Source: an uncultured Planctomycetota bacterium
GTDB lineage: Bacteria; Planctomycetota; Planctomycetia; Isosphaerales; Isosphaeraceae
Assembly (NCBI GenBank): GCA_963845755.1
Contig: CAWJTV010000005.1
Location: 128,001-192,000 of the forward strand
Length of the DNA: 64,000 bases
Reading direction: 5' to 3'
Under the pieces are notes generated by a model. The model made no database searches. It worked only from the letters and a program-made list of their open reading frames with translations, and was not told the DNA's origin. Position numbers and translations under genes: made by a program. Positions 1 to 9,841 of this stretch are shown here, piece after piece (the first letter of the stretch is position 1; each line of letters starts with the position of its first letter).

Positions 1-815
1 GCCAGGATCGACGGTGCCGAGTACCAGACGTCTAGCTGTCGATCGGCCATGAACTCGCCTAGCCGACAAGGGTCCTTGCCTAAAGTCTCGCCGACCAACA
101 CCAGGGTCGCTGCGCTCTGGCAAGACCCAAAGAGGTCGAACACCGAGAGGTCGAAATGCAAGGGAGCGTGCGAGCCGAACCGGTCACCGTCGCGCCAGGG
201 CCCGAGTGCGCCTCGACACCACTCGAGAAAGGTCAAGGCATTGGCGTGGGAGAGCATGACGCCTTTGGGTTGGCCGGTCGAGCCCGAGGTGAAGAGGATG
301 TACGCCAGGTCGTCCTCGGTATGCGGAGTAGGAAGCGGCGAGGGGGCGTCGTCCATCATGACCTCTTTCCAGAGTGCATCGCGATGTGCGCTCAGGTCCG
401 TCGTCATGGTCTCCTCACCGGCGACGATCAAGCGAGGCAGTGGGCCATCGTCCGGCCATGCCCCGCGGAGTGCGGGTGCCAGATGAGCAGCGACGACCAC
501 CGCCTTGACGCCCGCTGAGGCCAGGATTCGCGCGGCCCTTGGGGCCGGGCTCGCGGGGTCGACCGGCACATAGGCCGCGCCCGCGCGGAGGATCCCGTGC
601 ACGGCGGCCACGGCCTCGAGCCCCTTGGGCAGCCACAGGCCAACGCGATCTCCGCGACCGGCACCCCAGCGGACCAGTCGCGTTGACACTCGATCCGCCG
701 CCCAGAGCAATTCTCCGTAACTGAGTACGGCGCCCCGTTCGTCCTCCACAGCCGGACGATCCGGCCGTCGCGCGGCGGCCTCGTCGAGAAGTTGACTTAA
801 ATGGCGTCCATCCAT
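1..815 (-). CDS. Amino-acid adenylation (AMP-binding) enzyme, DltA/NRPS A-domain-like; runs off the window edge
   Basis: Absent from the ORF track; translated by hand from ATG 815: MDGRHLSQLLDEAAARRPDRPAV...GILRAGAAYVPVDP...LAYILFTSGSTGQPKGVMLSH...SHAPLHFDLSVFDLF (A-domain core motifs A2-A4). Confidence 0.9.
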   Translation of the reverse strand, partial: MDGRHLSQLLDEAAARRPDRPAVEDERGAVLSYGELLWAADRVSTRLVRWGAGRGDRVGLWLPKGLEAVAAVHGILRAGAAYVPVDPASPAPRAARILASAGVKAVVVAAHLAPALRGAWPDDGPLPRLIVAGEETMTTDLSAHRDALWKEVMMDDAPSPLPTPHTEDDLAYILFTSGSTGQPKGVMLSHANALTFLEWCRGALGPWRDGDRFGSHAPLHFDLSVFDLFGSCQSAATLVLVGETLGKDPCRLGEFMADRQLDVWYSAPSIL

Positions 816-954
816 GAGCACCCTACCTGCCGCGGCCCTGCCGCAACCGAATGGAAGATTCGAGATTTCAGATCTCTCCAGACTTCAAAAACGATCACTC
901 TTGCAATCTAAAGGCCAGAGTTCGCGACCCCGCCCGATCCACTGCGAGCGGATG

Positions 955-2266
955 TTACGGGCTCAGAATCGGTCCGCCGCTCTCGGAGAGCCGTGAATCG
1001 CCCTCGTTACTACGCTCGGCAGCCTCCGTATCGGAGTGTACGGGGCCGATCGGTCCGTGTCTTGTTGCCTCGCCAGCCGCGGCCTGGCTTTCGGGTCTCA
1101 ACTCCTGGAGACCGGAGGTCTCCGGCGGGAACAGCAGCCGGGACAATGACGCGTCCGCAGCGACGGCCTGGGCCAGGGCAACGAAAAGTCGCTCGTGTCC
1201 CACCGCGTTGGGATGGTCGTCCCAGGCGGCGATCTCGAGCTTCGCCGGGTCATAGGGGTCGAATGTATTTGAAAGGTCGAAGACGGAGATCGCATGGTGG
1301 GCCGCCAGGGCCTTCAGGCGCGAGACCGGTTCGGCCCGGATCTCCGGCGCGTTTCTTTGCCCACTCGCGGAATGATCACCATGACGAGGGGTATGCCCGC
1401 CGAGCGGCATTCCGCTGAGAGCATACCGATCGTCCGATCGTACAAGCCCCAGTAATAGGGCCTTAACATCGCCTTGATCCGATCCTTGTGGATCAACTCC
1501 CGTTGGTCATTCAGTCGAAGGTCACCGGCGGTCACGCCGGCCTCGCTGATCGCCTGCCTCAGGAAAGGGTACCGCAGGTTGACGCCATTTCGGAGCATTT
1601 CGAGCAGGTGGATCTCCATCAGACGGACATCGAGCGTCGTGGCCGAGTAGATGACCAGGTCGGGACAGAACGCGAGTCCGTTGCGGTGAAGTGTCTCGAA
1701 CCTCTGGAGTGGGCTGTAAGCCGCGACGGCGAAATTCAAAACCTCGAATCGGCGCGACCGGAGCGATCCTCGGCCGGTCGAGACGGCATCCAGCCAGTCC
1801 TGCAGCCGATTGGCGTAGGTATCCTGGTATCTCACACCCCATCCCATATCCATCGACGCGCCCAGCACGGCGATCCGGAATGTGCCCTCGGGCTTCTCGA
1901 GCGTAACCTCGCCGTCGTGCATTCCGAACGAATTCGTCACGAACGGCTGACCGCAGAGCGTCCGTTGGACTCGGGGCTTGAGCTCGAATTGGAGGAAGTC
2001 GTCATCGAGGTAACGGACGACGCCGGCTTCCTGAAAGCCGATCCAGCCCTCCGGCCTGCCGACGTTGGACCCGCCGAGGATCTCCTCGTAGTAGCCGACC
2101 ACGTGGGCCTCTCGTTCGCCGAGTCGCGGTCCAGTGGATCGCGCGTATCGAGGAGGGCGTGGATTCCGGACCAGTCGGCCGGCCAGGAGACCAGGCCCAC
2201 GATCAGTAGCACCAGGGGATGAAGTAGTCCGGCCCGGGCTGCTGAGCAGATCTGTTGATAAATCAT
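955..2266 (-). CDS. Membrane-anchored SGNH-fold protein (AlgJ/DltD-like), frameshifted at ~2120 and ~1350
   Basis: Joins ORFs 1937..2266 (N-terminal TM), 1314..2345 (GYYE, NSFGMHD, RIAVLGASMDMG, VLNFAVAAYS) and 955..1410 (WDDHPN, SGNH block V DxH). The start overlaps the stop of the upstream gene. Confidence 0.75.
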
Positions 2267-3465
2267 CGTGACTTGACTCCTGGGAGGGCGATCGAGATGT
2301 TAAGGGCCGTGTTTCGGGTTGCCTTGGCAACGGGGCCTTCGCCACAGAGATGCCGCAACTCAGGTAGCTCGCTCAGGGCTGTGTCGAGGCGGGCGGCGAG
2401 GCAGCGATGGCCCGAGAGATTCGGGTGGAAGTCGTCGGGCTCGACGGCCAGCGCGGACGGTTCGAAGCCATTGAAGGCATCACTCGCGTCGACGATGTGA
2501 GTGAATCCAGCGGCCTGCGCCGCCTCCTGGAGTGCTCGATGGCCGGCCGGCTCGCTGGGACGCCCGACGCGGGGGATCAGAACCCAGATGATCGGTACAT
2601 TTCGAGCTCGGCAGTCATCCGCTATGGCGCGATAGACGCCTGCCAGGATTTCCTGATGGCGCGGTTGCAGCACGCGCTTGTAACGCTCTGGATTCCAGAG
2701 AGGCTCGACTCCAGCCGATGTCAAGACCCCCCGGTACAGAGGCGAGTCGAACCCGAGTCCCCGGGCCAAGACATAGCGGAGCCTCCGCTCGTCCCAGCCG
2801 ATGTCGGCCTCCGTCGATTCGCAGATCACCAGGTCGGGCTGCATCGGCCAGCCGACCTGGCTGAAGTGATGCCAACGCTGGCCGGGCGCATGCCCGGGAA
2901 CGGAAGTGTTAATGATTTCGATTGCCGGGCCGCCCGCTCGTCGCGAACGGGCGTCCCATTCGCGCTCGAGGATCGACTCAAACCGCTGCTCGACGTTGAC
3001 TCCCCAGCCCACGCCGATTGAGTCGCCCACTAGGGCAATGCGGAACGTTCCGGCCGGCTTTTCGATCGCGTAGTCTCGATCGCGCATCCCCTGCGCGTTG
3101 GAGCGCCACTCCACGCCCCATCGCTGGACCGTATCGCCCGTCCTCAAGACGACCTCACGCAGATCGTCGACTCGCACGACCAGGGGCGCCGAGTCCACCG
3201 GGACCGAGAAGGTGCCGCGAGAACCGGGTTGTCGGCGAAGGGCCGGAAGGTCGCCCAGCTCATTGAGCCGGCGACCGGCATTAATCACTTGCTCATAGTA
3301 TCCGCGCTCGATTCGTGAGGCGTCAGCCCGGTTGAACAGGCCGCTTCTGAGGCTGGACCGTAGCCGCGCGGGCCCGCGCCCGGCGAGATCGTCCGGGATC
3401 AATCCGAACGCCAGGATCGCGAGCGTCGCGAACAATTGGCGGCCCATCATCCCGTCATGATCCAT
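2263..3465 (-). CDS. Membrane-anchored SGNH/GDSL hydrolase-fold protein (putative acyltransferase)
   Basis: N-terminal hydrophobic helix, GYYE, SNAQGMRD, RIALVGDSIGVG (block I), INTSVPG, DDFHPN (block V). Confidence 0.85.
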   Translation of the reverse strand: MDHDGMMGRQLFATLAILAFGLIPDDLAGRGPARLRSSLRSGLFNRADASRIERGYYEQVINAGRRLNELGDLPALRRQPGSRGTFSVPVDSAPLVVRVDDLREVVLRTGDTVQRWGVEWRSNAQGMRDRDYAIEKPAGTFRIALVGDSIGVGWGVNVEQRFESILEREWDARSRRAGGPAIEIINTSVPGHAPGQRWHHFSQVGWPMQPDLVICESTEADIGWDERRLRYVLARGLGFDSPLYRGVLTSAGVEPLWNPERYKRVLQPRHQEILAGVYRAIADDCRARNVPIIWVLIPRVGRPSEPAGHRALQEAAQAAGFTHIVDASDAFNGFEPSALAVEPDDFHPNLSGHRCLAARLDTALSELPELRHLCGEGPVAKATRNTALNISIALPGVKSR

Positions 3466-4869
3466 AGAAACCTCGGTGAAGCATGTCCAGCCATGCCGAC
3501 AGGCTGGGGCTCGACCAGAGCGACCAGAGGACGGCGATGGTCATGAAGATCCCGGCGACCCTCACGACACGCACGGCCAGTTCGCGCGGCGCCACGATGT
3601 CGTGCCCGTGTCTCCGGAGGCGCGCCCCGTTCCTGCACGGCTGCGCCGGGCGTCGAACTGGACATTCAGCATTACCAGGATGCCGAGTGTGCCCCAGAAG
3701 AGGGCGTCGGGCACCGTGAAGCCCCAGCTCCCGACCAGCCAGTACCTCTGGTAGGCGTGCAATATCCATGTGGCCAGGAATACCGTGACGATACCCATTG
3801 CGAGTGCCGCCGGTTGCGGCCATCGCTTCAGCCGGAACACCACCGGATTGAAGAACACCCTCACCATGAAATCCTTCCAGTAGATGTTGATTCGCCGCCA
3901 ATAGTCGGTGAAGCTCGTCGCCAGCAGGTAGTGGTGGTGGGTCGCCGGGAGGCGGTATCCGAAGAGGTGGAGCATCCCACAGGCCATGTGAAACTGGCCT
4001 GAGACCTGCAAATAAAGCAGGTAATTGCCGACGATATGGCCCGCCAGTCCGACGAGATCGTGCACATCGCCGGACTGGATCGAATATCGGTTATAGAGCA
4101 GGCGATAGCCCAGAAGATGCACCGTCCCCTGGAACATCATCGCCAGCCCACGCCGCTGGATCGCATGGATGTCGTCAACAAAGTACCCTCGCTGCATCGT
4201 CCGGTAATCGATTACGGGAAAGAGCTGGAAGCAGAAGTTTGGCAGGATGAAGAAATAGCCCAGCGTGTCGGCCAGCGGTTCGGGCGCCGTCGAGTGCTTG
4301 AGTTCATAGAGATAAATAATTATCCGAAACATGAACATGGATGCCACAATGGGCCAGACATTGTCGGGGATGCCGAAGGAGGAAGCTCCGGGTCGGGCCA
4401 GGATCGTGACCGCCGCGATCGCGGCGCAGGCTGACGCGCGAGCTGCCCACGGGATGCGAAGGTAGCAGACGCCGATCAGGACCGCGGCCATCGCCAGTAC
4501 GATGGCGGTGGTCCACGTGCCGCCGACCGAGATCAGGCCGACGATCGAGACCGCGACGAGACAGGGCTTCTTCCAGCGGAATGGAGCTAGGTAGTGTACC
4601 GGAAATGCCAGGAGCGCGATGAGGGCCAGGTTCTGAAAGGTCCGACCCTGATAGGGGCGTTCCTCGAGATGATAAACCTTGAATACCGCCACGAGCAGCG
4701 CGAGGTGAATCAGGTTACGCAGGAACGGGCGGAGGCTCCGACGGCATGACTCGGGCTCATCCGGGTACAGGGCCGAGAAACGCCGGCGCCGGCGAGGCTT
4801 CGATACGGGCACGTACTGATGGTGCGGCGCCCGCTTCGTTGCGACCGTCGTTCGAAATCCTGGCCCCAT
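3455..4869 (-). CDS. MBOAT-family membrane-bound O-acyltransferase (AlgI/DltB-like); frameshift at ~3585, true start possibly ~4760
   Basis: Polytopic; YLLYLQVSG..H, HLFGYRLP, ATSFTDYWRRINIYWKDFM, TWILH. The C-terminal TM helix is in ORF 3455..3901 and ends ...HRGFYGS. Confidence 0.85.
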
Positions 4870-4936
4870 GCGCCGGTCTCCCTCGGCTCATCTGCAACGG
4901 CAAGGGCGTCGACTTCCTCCGCGTCCTTAGCCCGAT

Positions 4937-4987
4937 CGCGCCGGCCCCGATACTCGCGCCGGCCCCATACGCCCTCGCGCCGGCCCC
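4937..4987. repeat. Three short direct repeats of CGCGCCGGCCCC
   Basis: Copies at 4937, 4955 and 4976. Confidence 0.6.
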
Positions 4988-5146
4988 CGCCGTTTTGTAG
5001 ACTGATCACGCTGGGAGCCGGTCCCGGCCGATGGACCTGATCCTCACCTTGTCTACGTGCTCACACCGACGTGTGATCTTCAGGAGCAGCGGTCATACGG
5101 GACGACGGGATCGCAGAAGGTGGGAAGGTCGGGGTGCCTGGAAACG

Positions 5147-5381
5147 GCGGGGACCGGTTCCTCCGTGAACCGGTGAGTTCCCCGCTGCGGCCGCGCCATC
5201 CGTGTTTCGCCTGATATCAATCCTTGTATCGGTTTGCCGCCAGGGAACTGCGGGGACCGGCTCCTCCGTGAACCGGTGAGATTCCCCGCTGCGGCCGCGC
5301 CATCCTTGATACGCATTTATTTCTTTCTTTCAATCTTTGTTTTCGCGGATGTCGCTCGCCGGTTGTCCTCCTTCAGCAACG
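5147..5381 (-). ncRNA. Candidate CsrA/RsmA-binding RNA (CsrB/RsmZ-like sRNA or regulatory 5' leader) built on a 55/56-bp direct repeat
   Basis: Repeat copies at 5147-5201 and 5250-5305. Six ANGGA motifs on the minus strand, most in hairpin loops (e.g. GGUUC-ACGGAG-GAACC). Confidence 0.5.
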
Positions 5382-5387
5382 ATCGCG

Positions 5388-5416
5388 ATTTAACCGAGAT
5401 CCCCCGGCGCTGTCAA
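5388..5416 (-). promoter_or_regulatory. Sigma70-like promoter for the GGA-hairpin element / MBOAT operon
   Basis: Minus strand: TTGACA (5416-5411), 17 nt, TTAAAT (5393-5388). Confidence 0.55.
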
Positions 5417-5675
5417 CCCGACTGGCGCTCCCATCGACGGCCCTTCGAGCGAACCCGATGAAGTGACTTGAGGTTCGGTCGATTCTCAACCGTCGTTTTT
5501 TTGAGAGGACGTAAGAGCGACCCGGCCGTTGCTCGCGGGACGCCGACAAAAACTGCGTTTTCTTTCCCTTCTGGCCGTGTTGGCCGACGCATGGCACGGG
5601 CTTACGCAGCCCTCCGCGCCGGTAATCCTGTTCCTAGTTTCTCGCGACATGTGCAAACCACCGCGGCGATCCTTA

Positions 5676-6587
5676 GAGCGCTCGGAAAAAATGAATCCAC
5701 TGGCACGCTGTCTGCTCTTGAGTCCTTCGGCGAGTGATCTCCCGAACCAAGGAGGACCACCATGAAACCCCTTGTCTCCGATGCGCCTGTGGAACTCCGC
5801 CCTGGAGCCCTTGCTGCCACCCCCGCCTCCGCGCCGCTTCCGCTTCCCGGGACGCAAATCCCTGGACTACCGCAAGATCCTCACCGGCATCTTGTTCGTG
5901 CTCAAGACCGGCATCGCCTGGGACGACTTGCCCGCCGACCTCGGCTGCGGCTGCGGCAAGACCTGCCGGTCCTACCTGCAGGCGTGGCAGCAGGCCGGTG
6001 TCTGGCGCCAGTTGCACGCCGTCTTGCTGGCCGAGCTCAACGGCGATGACGCGATCGACTGGGAGCGGGCGCTGATCGACGCCTCCTTCGCCAAGGCCCC
6101 GGAAGGGGGCGAGGATACCGGCCCGAATCCGACGGACCGGAGCAAATCCGGCAGCAAGCACCACGTGATGACCGACGCCCAAGGCGTGCCGCTGGCGGCG
6201 ACGGTGACCGCCGCCAACGTCCCCGAGATCACCCAGGTCTTCACGACGCTCGACGACATGCCGCCGGTGGGCGGCAAGCCGGGGCCGAAGCGGCAGAAGC
6301 CCGACCGCTTGCAGGGGGATCGGGGCTACGACTCGGAACCGGTGCGGCAGGGTTTGCGCGGCCGGGGGACCACGCCGGTGCTGGCGGCCCGCAATACGGA
6401 GCACGGCAGCGGTTTGGGCAAGTCCCGCTGGTACGTAGAGCGGACCATCGCGTGGCTGCACTCCTTCGGCCGGCTGCGCCGCCGTTTGGATCGGCTCACC
6501 GAGATTCAAGACGCGTTCCTCAAGTTAGCATGTTCCTTGATCTGTTTGAGGCTCCTGGGCCAGTGAACTCATTTTTTCCGAGCGCTC
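5676..6587 (+). mobile_element. IS5-family insertion sequence (912 bp)
   Basis: 29-bp terminal inverted repeats GAGCGCTCGGAAAAAATGA(A/G)T(C/T)CACTGGC (27/29 identical); TTA target duplication at 5673-5675 and 6588-6590; encodes a transposase. Confidence 0.93.
5762..6566 (+). CDS. IS5-family DDE transposase (frameshift near 5785)
   Basis: MKPLVSDA then LWN..LEPLLP..PGRK..ILTGILFVLKTGIAWDDLP; IDAS, GSKHH, GDRGYD, RWYVERTIAWL. Confidence 0.92.
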
Positions 6588-7312: not shown

Positions 7313-7585
7313 CCCGAATGCCGACGAAGCGACGCGGCGCCAGGCCGGTTTCCATCTGGACACGCGCGTCGATCGGCGGTATCGTTCGGCCCACACGTCT
7401 CAACTACCAACCTAAGGGTTGACGCGATACAAGACAAACGCGGCGGCTGGATGGCCGTCGCGCCGGGGTGGGCGTCTGGCATGGAAGCTGGGCGTGCCAC
7501 CGACCGGCACGTCGCGATCCGGCGCGTTCGCAGTCCGGTTCTCTCCGGTCCGTCGCTTTTCATGGGACTTTGTGGAGGAGCAAGG

Positions 7586-9841
7586 ATGCCTCCCACGCCG
7601 TCGAGCCCGCTGGGATACCTCCGGGGATTGTTCCTGCCGATCACGATCATCGGTGCGATCCTCGTGTTCGTGGTGCCCATTCCTGCGCCTTTGCTCGACG
7701 TGCTGCTCTCGGCCAACCTGACCGTGGCCGTCGTGGTGCTCTTGACGACCCTCTCGATCCAGTCGCCTCAGGAGTTTAGTGCATTTCCCACCATCTTGTT
7801 GACGACCACGCTGACTCGACTGGTCTTGAACGTCGCAACGACCCGGCTTGTGCTGACCCGGGCCGGCGTGGACCAGCTCGATGCGGCGGGTGGTGTGATC
7901 AGAGCGTTCGGGGAATTCGTGGCGGGAGACCAGGTGATCGTCGGTGTGATCCTGTTTTCGATCCTGGTTGTGATCCAGTTCGTCGTGATCACTCGGGGGG
8001 CGACCCGTATCAGCGAAGTCGCGGCGCGATTCATGCTCGATGGGCTGCCGGGCCGTCAGATGGCGATTGACTCCGATCTGCACGCCGGCCTAATCGACCA
8101 ACACGAGGCCCACCGGCGTCGCGAGGAAGTCTATCGTCAGTCGGATTTCTTCGGCGCGATGGACGGAGCCGGCAAGTTCGTGCGCGGCGACGCCGTGGCC
8201 GGGGTGGTGATTCTGCTGGTAAACATCGCCGCTGGGCTCTACCTGGGGATGGTCAACTACGGGATGAGTGCGAGCGACGCGGTCAACGTCTTCACGAAGT
8301 TGACGATCGGCGATGGGCTGGTCAGTCAAGTACCGGCTTTCTTGATCTCGCTGGCCTCCGGCCTGATCGTCACCCGATCTTCGTCCTCGACCGACCTGAA
8401 TCGCGACGTGATCGAACAATTGTTCACGCGGCCCGGAGTGCTGGGAGTGGCGGCCGTATTCGTGGGACTAATGGCCTTGACTCCGCTGCCCAAGCTACCA
8501 CTACTGGCTCTCGGCGGTGGCCTCGGTGCCGCCGCGCTGTACCTGGGTTCTCGTCGGGCCGATGATACGGTCGAACGGCCGCACGGGGATGCCGGTGTGA
8601 GTCCGGGAGCGGAGACGAGTTCGCCCCGATTCCGTCCCGACGAGAAGGCGGGTGCGACTCTCTCGACTCGGGGCAAGTCGGCCTTGCCGGCGATGAGAGC
8701 CGACGGGGAGTCGGCCGAGAGCGCCTCGGAACGGATGGAGGACTTGCTCCACGTCAATCCACTTGAAATGGAGATCGGGTTCAGGCTCATCGGCCTGGCC
8801 GACCCGACTCGAGGCGGCGACCTGCTCGGCCGGCTCAAGACGGTGCGCCAGCGCGTTGCGCGGGAAATGGGCTTGATCGTGCCCCAGGTGAGGATTCACG
8901 ACGAGATTGGCTTGCCTCCCAACGAATACCGGGTGAAGATCCGAGGAAATCAGGTCGGGCAAGGAATTGCCTACGCCGGGCGACTGTTGGCGGTACCTCC
9001 GGCCGGACTCGTGACGCGGCCTGACGGTCGCGATGGCGTGGACCCGGTCACGGGTCAACCGGCGGTCTGGATTCACGCCGACGGACGCGAGGTGGCCGAG
9101 CTTGCAGGCTGCCGCGTCCTGGATGCCGCGACGGTCGTCGCCGGCCATTTCGGCGAGATCGTCGCCAATCACGCCGACGAGCTCCTCACCCGCGAGCAAG
9201 TCGAGCGGCTGCTCGAGCGGGTCCGAACCACTGCCCCGACGTTGGTCGGAGAAGTTGTGCCCGGTCTGCTCCGCGCCGGCGAGCTTCAGCGGGTCTTGCA
9301 GAACCTGTTAAGGGAGCGAGTCAGCATTCGCGACCTCGAGACAATCCTCGAGACATTGGCCGTTCATGCCGGCAGGACCAAGGATGTCGACGTCCTGACC
9401 GAGGAAGTTCGCCGCAGTCTGGCCCGTCAGATCACTGAGACGTATCGCGGTCCGGACGGGAGACTCCGGATCGTCTCCCTGGATGGTCCGCTGGAGGCGC
9501 GATTGGAAGCGGCAGGGCGCCAGGCCGAGACTCGTCCGGCCGAGGCCTTGGGTGAGGATACGGTCCGGAGCATCATCCGCGCCGTCGCATTGGCTGTTGA
9601 AGCCCTCGTCGACAACGGCTATCCCCCCGTGATCGTCACTGCACCTGCCGCCCGCGCCGTCCTCAAGGATTTGACTCGCGCCGACTTGCCGCGGCTGGTC
9701 GTCCTGGGCCAACGCGAGATCCCCCGCGATACGTCGGTCGAGATCCTCGGCAGTGTCGTGGAGGAGGAACCCGAAGTCGTGACCACTTACACCACGTCTT
9801 CGTCCCTGAATCCTCTCGTCCTCGAGTCCTCAAGTCCGTGA
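7586..9841 (+). CDS. flhA: Flagellar export gate protein FlhA
   Basis: FSAFPTILL, RLVLNVATTR, GATRISEVAARFMLDGLPGRQMAIDSDL, DFFGAMDGAGKFVRGDA, LTIGDGLVSQVPA, LLRERVSIRDL. Confidence 0.95.
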   Translation: MPPTPSSPLGYLRGLFLPITIIGAILVFVVPIPAPLLDVLLSANLTVAVVVLLTTLSIQSPQEFSAFPTILLTTTLTRLVLNVATTRLVLTRAGVDQLDAAGGVIRAFGEFVAGDQVIVGVILFSILVVIQFVVITRGATRISEVAARFMLDGLPGRQMAIDSDLHAGLIDQHEAHRRREEVYRQSDFFGAMDGAGKFVRGDAVAGVVILLVNIAAGLYLGMVNYGMSASDAVNVFTKLTIGDGLVSQVPAFLISLASGLIVTRSSSSTDLNRDVIEQLFTRPGVLGVAAVFVGLMALTPLPKLPLLALGGGLGAAALYLGSRRADDTVERPHGDAGVSPGAETSSPRFRPDEKAGATLSTRGKSALPAMRADGESAESASERMEDLLHVNPLEMEIGFRLIGLADPTRGGDLLGRLKTVRQRVAREMGLIVPQVRIHDEIGLPPNEYRVKIRGNQVGQGIAYAGRLLAVPPAGLVTRPDGRDGVDPVTGQPAVWIHADGREVAELAGCRVLDAATVVAGHFGEIVANHADELLTREQVERLLERVRTTAPTLVGEVVPGLLRAGELQRVLQNLLRERVSIRDLETILETLAVHAGRTKDVDVLTEEVRRSLARQITETYRGPDGRLRIVSLDGPLEARLEAAGRQAETRPAEALGEDTVRSIIRAVALAVEALVDNGYPPVIVTAPAARAVLKDLTRADLPRLVVLGQREIPRDTSVEILGSVVEEEPEVVTTYTTSSSLNPLVLESSSP

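What the first reader, a model, noticed from the sequence alone, without database searches (positions are those of the whole stretch)
5147..5416. Promoter-driven, duplicated GGA-hairpin RNA: candidate CsrB/RsmZ-like sponge or CsrA-controlled leader in a planctomycete
Seen: a TTGACA-N17-TTAAAT promoter on the minus strand (start ~5381) followed by six ANGGA motifs (plus-strand 5369, 5303, 5265, 5221, 5199, 5162). Five lie in short stem-loops: UCA-AGGA-UGG, GGUUC-ACGGAG-GAGCC, GAUA..CAAGGAUUG..UAUC, CA-CGGA-UG, GGUUC-ACGGAG-GAACC. The core is a 55/56-bp direct repeat that itself folds (GCGGGGA/UCCCCGC outer stem). The single substitution between the copies turns a U-A pair into a U-G wobble only on the minus strand, which fits selection on a minus-strand RNA. 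Known: ANGGA in hairpin loops is the CsrA/RsmA site; CsrB/RsmY/RsmZ are multi-site arrays described mainly in Gammaproteobacteria; planctomycete genomes commonly annotate several csrA paralogs. Inferred: this is either an undescribed antagonist sRNA or a pgaA-like multi-site leader controlling the acylation operon. I saw no clear terminator, so the leader model is open.
Basis: partly seen in the sequence, partly recalled or inferred. Interest (0 to 1): 0.78.

Follow-up and report, generated by a model that had tools for sequence, protein, structure and literature searches.

The report
Conserved CsrA-type leader RNA in Isosphaeraceae
A small, strongly conserved two-hairpin RNA sits in front of a membrane acyltransferase operon in most Isosphaeraceae (Planctomycetes); both of its loops look like binding sites for the regulator CsrA, so it is probably an undescribed CsrA-controlled mRNA leader.

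Summary
The promoter-like TTGACA-N17-TTAAAT, six minus-strand ANGGA motifs and the ~76-nt tandem repeat lie at the stated coordinates. The repeat unit is not mobile: it is unique in the 14.3-Mb genome.

The unit is a conserved, Rfam-absent structured RNA. Covariance models find it in 87-89 of 121 Isosphaeraceae genomes, almost always once. They find it in 0 of 115 genomes of other families of the class, and give 1 doubtful hit in 150 phylum genomes. Sixteen of 19 base pairs covary. Both loops read CANGGANG in 87 of 88 copies.

Eighty-six of 90 matches lie upstream of the same MBOAT-like (AlgI/DltB-like) gene, usually behind a conserved promoter-like motif. It is therefore a cis-acting leader, not a free-standing sponge.

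The genome encodes 14 CsrA paralogs. The family's FliW-linked csrA carries a nearly identical loop hairpin in its own leader.

Best reading (about 0.6): a dual-site CsrA operator. It may act through Rho-dependent attenuation, because a C-rich, G-poor tract follows it. Binding and transcription are untested. Only this genus has the tandem duplication.

The parts
5388..5416 (-). Promoter-like motif: TTGACA (5416-5411), 17-nt spacer, TTAAAT (5393-5388). Predicted transcription start near 5381.
   Evidence: Read from the sequence. The block CAGTCGGGTTGACAG...GGTTA(A/T)ATC is conserved in orthologous loci. An ad hoc regular expression finds it in 78 of 84 loci, with a median of 157 nt from the predicted start to the element. 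The strict consensus scan did not call it. No transcript data exist.
5362..5380 (-). 5'-proximal hairpin GUUG-CUGAAGGAGGA-CAAC with GGA in the loop (first ANGGA, ending at 5369).
   Evidence: Sequence. GGA-containing hairpins occur at this place in many orthologs by eye. GGA in the first 50 nt is not enriched over shuffles: 73 of 78 observed against 70.1 expected. This part is therefore weak.
5250..5314 (-). Element copy A, a genus-specific duplicate. P1 is GCGU/GCGC around the loop AUCAAGGAUG (site 1, GGA at 5305-5303). P2 has an outer stem GCGGGGA/UCCCCGC and an inner stem CCGGUUC/GAGCCGG, closed by the hexaloop ACGGAG (site 2, GGA at 5267-5265).
   Evidence: Model R1 scores it 88.1 bits. 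A second copy exists only in G000 and the same-genus G001.
5213..5230 (-). Spacer hairpin GAUA-CAAGGAUUGA-UAUC between the copies (fourth ANGGA, ending at 5221).
   Evidence: Sequence. A CCAGGAU lies at the same place in G001.
5147..5210 (-). Element copy B, the copy that lies at about the same distance from the promoter-like motif as the single copy of other genera. P1 is GCGA/GCGC around AACACGGAUG (site 1, GGA at 5201-5199). The linker is GGCCGCA. P2 has an outer stem GCGGGGA/UCCCCGC, a 5-nt bulge ACUCA, an inner stem CCGGUUC/GAACCGG and the hexaloop ACGGAG (site 2, GGA at 5164-5162).
   Evidence: Model R1 scores it 95.3 bits. Structure is supported by covariation: 16 of 19 pairs, 93.9% of cells paired. 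The inner stem is also predicted on an alignment not fitted to the model. Promoter-to-element distance is about 200 nt, as in other genera.
5060..5146 (-). C-rich, G-poor tract directly after the element. It is a candidate Rho entry (rut-like) region and holds the block CGUCGUCC, complementary to site 1.
   Evidence: G000 has 27 C against 12 G in the first 60 nt. The mean over 84 leaders is C 0.40 and G 0.25 at offset 0, returning to about 1:1 by +60. Evidence for long-range pairing with site 1 is weak.
4935..4987 (-). Three direct copies of a 14-nt unit (GGGGCCGGCGCGAG on the minus strand) inside the same leader. Species-specific, function unknown.
   Evidence: family D3. Not present in the G001 leader.
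4867..4884 (-). Ribosome-binding region GAGGGAGA (4884-4877) and the ATG (4869-4867) of the MBOAT-like gene.
   Evidence: Conserved block AGCCGAGAGGGG...CCAUGGGG. A full CANGGA overlaps this region in 17 of 80 orthologous leaders, and any GGA in 64 of 80. G000 has GGA but not CANGGA.
3562..4869 (-). Regulated gene P0001 (435 aa), an MBOAT-superfamily-like (AlgI/DltB-like) membrane protein.
   Evidence: No Pfam or NCBIfam hit. JGI names for close relatives are 'AlgI' or 'DltB (MBOAT superfamily)'. The ESM Atlas places it near MBOAT clusters at 0.91-0.92. A homolog is present in 115 of 121 family genomes.
3..3465 (-). Rest of the putative operon inside the window: GDSL/SGNH hydrolase (2263-3465), a second GDSL-like ORF (1314-2345, with a fragment at 955-1410), and the start of an AMP-binding enzyme (3-821). 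Beyond the window come a lipid-A-type acyltransferase and an esterase.
   Evidence: Pfam scans and the ORF list of L172.

Best explanation
The ~65-nt unit is a cis-acting regulatory module in the long 5' leader of an envelope-acylation operon. The operon holds an MBOAT/AlgI-like gene, two SGNH/GDSL genes, an acyl-AMP ligase and an acyltransferase.

The module folds into two hairpins, P1 and P2. Each presents an invariant CANGGANG, and the two GGA triplets are 37-38 nt apart. This geometry suits the two RNA-binding faces of one CsrA dimer.

I propose that a host CsrA, most likely the FliW-linked paralog, binds it and sets expression of the operon. The module lies 55-390 nt from the start codon and is followed by a conserved C-rich, G-poor tract. 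The most likely route in this genome is therefore control of transcript elongation (Rho-dependent attenuation, as in E. coli pgaA) or of mRNA stability, not direct occlusion of the ribosome-binding site. In lineages where the Shine-Dalgarno region itself reads CANGGAGGGG, classical translational repression is likely as well.

In this genus the module was duplicated in tandem. With two further GGA hairpins the leader has six sites.

Shown here: the structure, its conservation, its strand, its gene linkage, the motif match and the presence of CsrA. Inferred: transcription from the promoter-like motif, CsrA binding, and the direction and route of regulation.
For: (1) It is a real structured RNA on the gene's strand. 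Of 19 model pairs, 16 show compensatory changes and 93.9% of cells pair. None of 500 shuffles reach this, and slid controls pair at 37-50%. The many G-U pairs would be A-C mismatches on the other strand. The inner stem is recovered by RNAalifold on a MAFFT-only alignment of 88 copies, where 6 of 10 predicted pairs have double changes.

(2) The loops are the conserved part. Site 1 reads CANGGANG in 87 of 88 copies and site 2 in 87 of 88, and GGA is present in 88 of 88 at both (the site 2 count is read from the printed list). Mean majority fraction is 0.92 and 0.85 for the loops against 0.52 for the internal bulge.

(3) The motif matches published CsrA/RsmE sites: the SELEX consensus RUACARGGAUGU with GGA in a six-nucleotide hairpin loop, the ANGGAN hexaloop of RsmE targets, the CAGGA(U/A/C)G repeats of CsrB, and dimer bridging of sites 10-63 nt apart (passages of PMC7652899).

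(4) It acts in cis. Of 90 matches, 86 are followed on the same strand by a P0001 homolog. Two more are cut by contig ends. A promoter-like motif is found in 78 of 84 loci.

(5) The host has CsrA: 14 paralogs over the Pfam cut-off, all beginning MLVL(S/T)RK and all with an arginine at the place of E. coli R44 (the residue role is recalled). It also has one FliW.

(6) An internal positive control: the FliW-linked csrA ortholog (60 of 61 family genomes) carries in its own leader a hairpin GUGA-UCANGGAUGG-UCAC. Its loop is almost the same as site 1. CANGGA is present in 26 of 30 and GGA in 29 of 30 leaders, and an AAGGAG Shine-Dalgarno site follows in 30 of 30. This is the arrangement expected for CsrA autoregulation (abstract of PMC7652899).

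(7) A rut-like tract follows the element, and Rho is encoded. CsrA-driven Rho termination in the pgaA leader is a precedent (abstract of PMC4052769).
Against: No binding, transcript or expression data exist. No RNA run holds the locus.

The module does not overlap the ribosome-binding site. In G000 it lies about 280 nt from the start codon, beyond the 63-nt bridging range reported for E. coli CsrA. Only 17 of 80 orthologous leaders have a full CANGGA at the Shine-Dalgarno region.

The long-range pairing that would give a pgaA-like switch is weakly supported. Only one covarying pair was found on a hand-picked subset of 38 sequences. Across all 84 leaders the mean z was -0.56, with 11 of 84 at or below 5 of 100 shuffles. 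In G000 itself z was -0.32.

Hairpins of the form C-ANGGAN-G are not enriched genome-wide over permuted loops. No csrA gene lies within the roughly 0.5-1.5 kb of flank held on either side of the element.

About a quarter of family genomes have the gene but no detectable module. The pattern 'invariant loops, covarying stems' would also fit another loop-reading protein.
Confidence: 0.6

Rival explanations
1. It is a riboswitch, or the operator of a different RNA-binding protein. The two-hairpin leader would sense a small molecule linked to envelope acylation, or bind a non-CsrA protein, and the GGA loops would resemble CsrA sites only by coincidence.
For: It is a conserved structured leader tied to one gene family and matches no Rfam family. 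A conserved linker (0.82) and a possible alternative long-range helix are riboswitch-like traits.
Against: The internal bulge, where a pocket would be expected, is variable (0.52), while the two apical loops carry the same invariant motif. Two equal, non-complementary loops fit a homodimeric protein better than a ligand pocket. A nearly identical loop hairpin sits in the csrA leader. No clear expression platform is present: there is no canonical terminator, and evidence for sequestration by pairing is weak.
Confidence: 0.17
2. It is a CsrA-titrating RNA (a sponge). The leader, or a short transcript ending after P2, would act in trans to sequester CsrA, as CsrB/RsmZ do. This would apply especially in this genus, where duplication gives six GGA sites.
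For: G000 has six ANGGA motifs, five of them in hairpin loops. Both copies and the spacer site are kept in the second species of the genus. The stable P2 hairpin is followed by a short U-run: the most U in any 8-nt window over the 10 nt after the hairpin has a median of 3, and 10 of 88 copies have 5 or more.
Against: In 85 of the 87 genomes with an R1 match at E <= 0.01 there is only one unit, that is two sites. CsrB has 22 GGA (PMC7652899). The unit was not found away from the MBOAT-like gene, apart from two weak matches that are probably false. The scanner found no terminator, and there is no Rfam CsrB/Rsm match. A cis role and a trans role do not exclude each other.
Confidence: 0.12
3. It is a protein-independent structural element. 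P2 would act as a leader stabiliser, a processing site or a weak intrinsic attenuator, and the GGAGG-like loops would attract or park ribosomes.
For: P2 is a GC-rich 14-bp hairpin with mild U enrichment after it. The site 2 loop often reads GGAGGA, which is Shine-Dalgarno-like.
Against: This does not explain why the unpaired loop letters C-A-N-G-G-A-N-G are the most conserved positions in both hairpins, with N free. It also does not explain why a nearly identical loop recurs in the csrA leader. No start codon follows either loop at a conserved distance.
Confidence: 0.08

Closest known systems
E. coli pgaABCD leader (CsrA multi-site leader; CsrA-promoted Rho termination; PMC4052769, abstract seen in the listing)
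   Same: It is a long untranslated leader of an envelope-polymer modification or synthesis operon with several GGA sites. A C-rich tract downstream of the sites could serve as a Rho entry site.
   Different: pgaA has six dispersed sites, including ones over the Shine-Dalgarno region and the start codon. Here there is a compact, covarying 65-nt two-hairpin module far from the start codon. There is no sequence homology and the phylum differs. The switch helix is only weakly supported here.
glgC and hcnA type CsrA/RsmE operators (hairpin site plus SD site; RsmE-hcnA structure PDB 2JPP, named in PMC7652899)
   Same: Site 2 is an ANGGAN hexaloop closed by C-G on a short helix. Two sites lie within the 10-63-nt bridging range (37-38 nt).
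   Different: In glgC and hcnA one site overlaps the Shine-Dalgarno region. In G000 neither module site does. Only 17 of 80 orthologous leaders add a CANGGA at the Shine-Dalgarno region.
CsrB/CsrC/RsmY/RsmZ sponge sRNAs
   Same: They carry repeated CAGGA(U/A/C)G-type motifs in hairpin loops. G000's duplicated leader has six.
   Different: This is not an independent gene. It has two sites in most genomes, no terminator and no Rfam match.
csrA autoregulatory leader of the same family (FliW-linked csrA)
   Same: It has almost the same loop (AUCANGGAUGG) on a short stem and occurs in the same organisms.
   Different: In the csrA leader the second site is the Shine-Dalgarno sequence about 30 nt downstream. 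In the element the second site is a separate, very stable hairpin.

Membership tests
CsrA/RsmA-binding mRNA leader | GGA in the loop of a hairpin, ideally an ANGGAN hexaloop or the ACARGGAUG context | tested here: met
   Both loops read CANGGANG in 87 of 88 copies. The stems covary. The consensus is taken from passages of PMC7652899.
CsrA/RsmA-binding mRNA leader | Two or more sites spaced so that one dimer can bridge them (10-63 nt) | tested here: met
   GGA to GGA is 38 nt in copy A and 37 nt in copy B (coordinates).
CsrA/RsmA-binding mRNA leader | A site overlapping the Shine-Dalgarno sequence or start codon (classical repression) | tested here: inconclusive
   G000 has GGA within GAGGGAGA at 4884-4877 but no CANGGA. 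A full CANGGA is present in 17 of 80 orthologous leaders and any GGA in 64 of 80.
CsrA/RsmA-binding mRNA leader | The host encodes CsrA | tested here: met
   There are 14 PF02599 matches over the cut-off in G000. The FliW-linked ortholog is present in 60 of 61 family genomes.
CsrA/RsmA-binding mRNA leader | Direct, GGA-dependent CsrA binding and CsrA-dependent expression | not testable with these tools
   This needs EMSA or ITC, CLIP and reporters. No RNA run was available.
CsrB/RsmZ-type sponge sRNA | An independent transcription unit with its own terminator | tested here: not met
   It lies 5' of the same gene in 86 of 90 matches. The scanner found no terminator. Ten of 88 copies have 5 or more U in 8 nt after P2.
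CsrB/RsmZ-type sponge sRNA | Many GGA sites, well above two | tested here: not met
   There is one two-site unit per genome in 85 of the 87 genomes with an R1 match. Only G000 and G001 have the tandem form. G104's second match is a weak, probably false hit without the gene.
Any Rfam family | A match at or near the gathering score | tested here: not met
   The best match reaches 18.1 bits against a gathering score of 37, and it is a CRISPR repeat model outside the element.
Riboswitch | Conserved internal loop or junction nucleotides forming a pocket, plus an expression platform | tested here: inconclusive
   The bulge is variable (0.52) and the linker is conserved (0.82). No canonical terminator is present. 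The alternative helix is weakly supported.

The most novel reading that the evidence does not exclude
The leader may be a CsrA sponge in the making. The ancestral two-site operator of the acylation operon was duplicated in tandem in this genus and gained extra GGA hairpins, giving six sites. The abundant 5' leader, or an attenuated short transcript ending in the C-rich tract, could now also titrate one or more of the 14 CsrA paralogs in trans. This would link envelope acylation to the whole Csr network in a flagellin-less lineage that still keeps FliW-CsrA. If so, it would show how CsrB-like decoys arise from mRNA operators outside the Proteobacteria.
Probability: 0.12. Interest if true: 0.75.

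Novelty: new member of a known kind. Interest (0 to 1): 0.5.

Why it matters
The Csr system has been worked out mainly in Gammaproteobacteria and Firmicutes. My two searches of open papers and preprints (CsrA + Planctomycetes; Isosphaeraceae + CsrA) turned up no described CsrA target in Planctomycetes.

This element gives a concrete, family-wide and experimentally tractable candidate target. It has a built-in positive control in the csrA leader hairpin. The lineage has an unusual set-up: 14 paralogs, FliW present, and flagellin not found.

It is also a new covariation-supported RNA family suitable for Rfam. In addition, it points to post-transcriptional control of an AlgI/DltB-like envelope acylation pathway in Isosphaeraceae.

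Tried and rejected
1. Dispersed or mobile repeat: rejected. BLAST of the 179-nt pair against the own genome finds only itself; the next best match is 28 nt at E 0.026.

2. Known RNA family: no Rfam match even at E up to 10.

3. Coding repeat or small ORF (5080-5316, minus strand, 78 aa): no Pfam hit. The two copies are out of frame (103 and 104-nt spacing), and 1-2-nt indels occur among orthologs.

4. Folding energy of the whole 286 nt: not significant (z = -1.63).

5. Long-range helix between site 1 and a downstream CGNCAUCC...CG-CC block. RNAalifold predicts it on 38 sequences that I chose because their downstream block was alignable. It pairs in 93% of cells against 24-57% in slid controls, but only one pair covaries. 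RNAduplex against shuffles over all 84 leaders gives mean z -0.56 and 11 of 84 at or below 5 of 100, compared with 1 of 84 for the upstream control. I keep it only as a weak idea.

6. Third conserved GGA site near the 5' end: not enriched over shuffles (73 of 78 against 70.1 expected).

7. Genome-wide enrichment of C-ANGGAN-G hairpins: 313 against 90-329 for permuted loops. The share in regions of low codon periodicity is 0.32 against 0.12-0.38. Uninformative.

8. Flagellin leader as a positive control: not possible. Flagellin_N was not found in G000 and was found in 1 of 121 family genomes.

9. csrA next to the element: none within the loci held.

10. RNA evidence: no RNA holder listed; read laying was not used.

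11. Promoter and terminator scanner: nothing called in 4700-5800.

12. The one hit outside the family (G293, 38.9 bits) has twin GGA hexaloop hairpins but no outer stem and no P0001 homolog downstream. I do not count it as a member.

13. A script meant to collect full-length orthologs for a structure prediction found only one, so I made no structure prediction. The MBOAT assignment rests on source names and the ESM Atlas.

14. My script's automatic count for site 2 (35) was wrong, because the slice took one column too many. The figure 87 of 88 is read from the list printed by that call.

Full report
**What is in the window.** On the minus strand, TTGACA (5416-5411), a 17-nt spacer and TTAAAT (5393-5388) precede a leader that runs about 510 nt to the ATG at 4869 of a 435-aa ORF. 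One lies on the other strand. Nineteen of 2000 dinucleotide shuffles of the 250-nt stretch reach six. Two direct copies, A (5314-5239) and B (5210-5136), share a core of 56 and 55 nt. The cores differ by one substitution and one single-base indel. Each copy can form two hairpins. The first is a short P1 (GCGN/NCGC) around the loop A(U/A)CANGGAUG. The second is a long P2 with an outer stem GCGGGGA/UCCCCGC, a 5-6-nt bulge, an inner stem CCGGUUC/GA(A/G)CCGG and a hexaloop ACGGAG. The folding energy of the whole stretch is not exceptional (z = -1.63).

**Not a mobile repeat, not a known RNA.** The unit occurs nowhere else in the 14.27-Mb genome. It matches no Rfam family even at E up to 10.

**A conserved structured RNA of one family.**
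- BLASTN already found 80-95% identical 65-nt stretches in 13 of 36 same-family genomes. Most had a single copy.
- A covariance model built from 14 copies (R1) finds the unit in 87 of 121 family genomes and 35 of 53 genera. Every genome has one match except G000 and G001 (same genus, two each) and one weak extra hit in G104.
- A second model built from 86 copies (R2) finds it in 89 of 121 genomes and 37 of 53 genera.
- With filters off, R1 also detects divergent versions upstream of the orthologous gene in four genomes that the R1 family search had missed: G034, G010, G109 and G091. The R2 search then found G034 and G010 as well.
- Outside the family, R1 finds none in 115 genomes of 16 other families of the class. 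R2 finds one 38.9-bit hit in 150 genomes of the phylum. That hit lacks the outer stem and the gene context.
- Record titles of 22 exact-pattern matches name Isosphaeraceae or Isosphaerales (10), Aquisphaera insulae JC669 (1), broader planctomycete labels (10) and one 'Actinomycetes' MAG.

**Structure.**
- On the model-fitted alignment of 90 matches, 93.9% of cells pair and 16 of 19 pairs show changes on both sides. No shuffle of 500 reaches any measure, and slid partners pair at 37-50%.
- That alignment leans towards the model, so I also folded a plain MAFFT alignment of 88 copies. For this I dropped two of the 90 matches, L134 and L138, which have no gene downstream. RNAalifold recovers the seven-pair inner stem and part of the outer stem on its own. 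Six of the 10 predicted pairs have double changes.
- The frequent G-U pairs fix the strand as that of the downstream gene.
- The conserved letters are the loops. Site 1 reads CANGGANG in 87 of 88 copies and site 2 in 87 of 88, with N free and GGA present in 88 of 88 at both. The internal bulge is variable: its majority fraction is 0.52, against 0.92 and 0.85 for the loops.

**Context.**
- Of 90 matches, 86 are followed on the same strand by a homolog of the 435-aa protein. Measured from the match end to the first aligned residue, the gap is 58-386 nt. Two more are cut by contig ends, and two weak ones have no such gene and are probably false.
- A promoter-like TTGAC(A/G)-N-T(A/T)(A/T)A(A/T)(T/C) block is found in 78 of 84 loci with a permissive pattern of my own. 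The median distance from the predicted start to the element is 157 nt (alignment). The tool's strict scan does not call it in G000.
- The protein has no Pfam or NCBIfam hit. JGI names its close relatives AlgI or DltB (MBOAT superfamily), and the ESM Atlas places it next to MBOAT clusters at 0.91-0.92. A homolog is present in 115 of 121 family genomes.
- Downstream follow two GDSL/SGNH hydrolases, an AMP-binding enzyme, a lipid-A-type acyltransferase and an esterase. 'Acylation operon' is therefore a fair label.
- The copy that lies at about the same distance from the promoter-like motif (about 200 nt) as the single copy of other genera is B. Copy A fills the otherwise variable stretch between the promoter and B, in G000 and G001 only.

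**Why CsrA.**
- The published high-affinity site is RUACARGGAUGU with GGA in a six-nucleotide hairpin loop. RsmE targets show an ANGGAN hexaloop. CsrB repeats read CAGGA(U/A/C)G. One dimer can bridge sites 10-63 nt apart (passages of PMC7652899).
- Both loops of the element fit these descriptions, and their GGA triplets are 37-38 nt apart.
- G000 encodes 14 CsrA paralogs with the canonical N-terminus and one FliW next to one of them.
- That FliW-linked csrA is conserved in 60 of 61 family genomes. Its own leader carries a hairpin GUGA-UCANGGAUGG-UCAC, whose loop is almost letter for letter site 1 of the element. An AAGGAG ribosome-binding site follows. CANGGA is present in 26 of 30 leaders, GGA in 29 of 30 and AAGGAG in 30 of 30. 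csrA autoregulation by translational inhibition is established in E. coli (abstract of PMC7652899).
- ANGGA is also over-represented upstream of the 14 paralogs (28 observed against 9.4 expected in 2884 nt). Much of that excess is ordinary Shine-Dalgarno sequence.

**How it may work.**
- In G000 the module lies about 280 nt from the start codon, so direct occlusion of the ribosome-binding site by the same dimer is unlikely.
- Directly after P2 comes a C-rich, G-poor tract. The mean over 84 leaders is C 0.40 and G 0.25 in the first 60 nt, returning to parity by +60. G000 has 27 C against 12 G. Rho is encoded.
- This recalls pgaA, where CsrA binding exposes a Rho entry site (abstract of PMC4052769).
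- A helix between site 1 and a conserved downstream block would provide the switch, but its support is weak.
- In 17 of 80 orthologous leaders, mostly those with the module within 140 nt of the start (10 of 20), the ribosome-binding region itself reads CANGGA(G/A)GGG. There the classical repression mode is plausible.
- P2 is followed by a mild U-run: the most U in any 8-nt window over the 10 nt after the hairpin has a median of 3, and 10 of 88 copies have 5 or more. A weak intrinsic pause or attenuator cannot be excluded.

**What speaks against the CsrA reading.**
- Nothing shows binding or transcription. No RNA run lists the locus.
- Hairpins of this type are not enriched genome-wide.
- No csrA gene lies beside the element.
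- About a quarter of family genomes have the gene without a detectable module.
- A riboswitch or another loop-reading protein would produce the same covariation pattern.

**Comparison and novelty.**
- It works most like the multi-site CsrA leaders (pgaA, glgC, hcnA) and meets their sequence-level criteria. It fails the defining features of a CsrB/RsmZ sponge: it is not an independent unit, has no terminator and lacks many sites.
- It is a compact, covarying module rather than loose GGA sites. It lies in a phylum where three searches of open papers and preprints found no described CsrA target or matching RNA motif.
- Earlier notes of this scan report CAUGGAUG-type hairpins at a planctomycete flagellin gene, and a sponge candidate in Phycisphaerales. 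These are unchecked leads that agree with the motif, and I did not test them.
- I file the element as a new member of a known kind, with moderate interest.

Noticed in passing
window 7451-9841 (+); G000:C20:459019-459731 (-): FlhA (FHIPEP, E 4e-231) and a fliW-csrA gene pair are present. No Flagellin_N domain is found in G000 (87.9% complete), and it is found in only 1 of 121 Isosphaeraceae genomes. FliW's usual partner therefore appears to be missing in this family.
   Followed up: partly
L196-L225 (upstream of the FliW-linked csrA orthologs): There is a conserved csrA leader: the hairpin GUGA-UCANGGAUGG-UCAC followed about 30 nt later by GGCAGGAGGAAGGAGCC at the start codon, in 30 loci from 30 genomes. 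It is a probable autoregulatory operator.
   Followed up: partly
G000, 14 places listed: G000 has fourteen CsrA paralogs (61-90 aa), all beginning MLVL(S/T)RK.
   Followed up: partly
window 4935-4987: Three direct copies of a 14-nt GC-rich unit (spacing 18 and 21 nt) lie inside the same leader, between the C-rich tract and the ribosome-binding site. They are absent from the sister species G001.
   Followed up: no
window 955-2345 (-): The second GDSL-like ORF (1314-2345) is followed by an overlapping 151-aa ORF (955-1410) in another frame that matches the C-terminal part of the GDSL domain. This may be a frameshift or a split gene.
   Followed up: no
window 3562-4869 (-): The MBOAT-like protein is 435 aa, while close relatives are 471-475 aa. 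The alignment to an 81%-identical relative ends at residue 426, so the C-terminus differs.
   Followed up: partly
window 5772-6566 (+): An IS4/IS5-family DDE transposase (DUF4096 + DDE_Tnp_1) lies about 350 nt upstream of the promoter-like motif.
   Followed up: no
L226 (G293:C188:8546-8615, minus strand): Another planctomycete family has a pair of hairpins with AUGGAC and AAGGAU hexaloops but no MBOAT-like gene downstream. It may be an unrelated CsrA-type site pair.
   Followed up: partly
L155, L158, L170 and others; 17 of 80 leaders: In several orthologous leaders the ribosome-binding site of the MBOAT-like gene reads CA(G/C/U)GGAGGGG, a full CsrA-type motif over the Shine-Dalgarno sequence. 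L155 and L158 lack the upstream module; L170 has it.
   Followed up: partly
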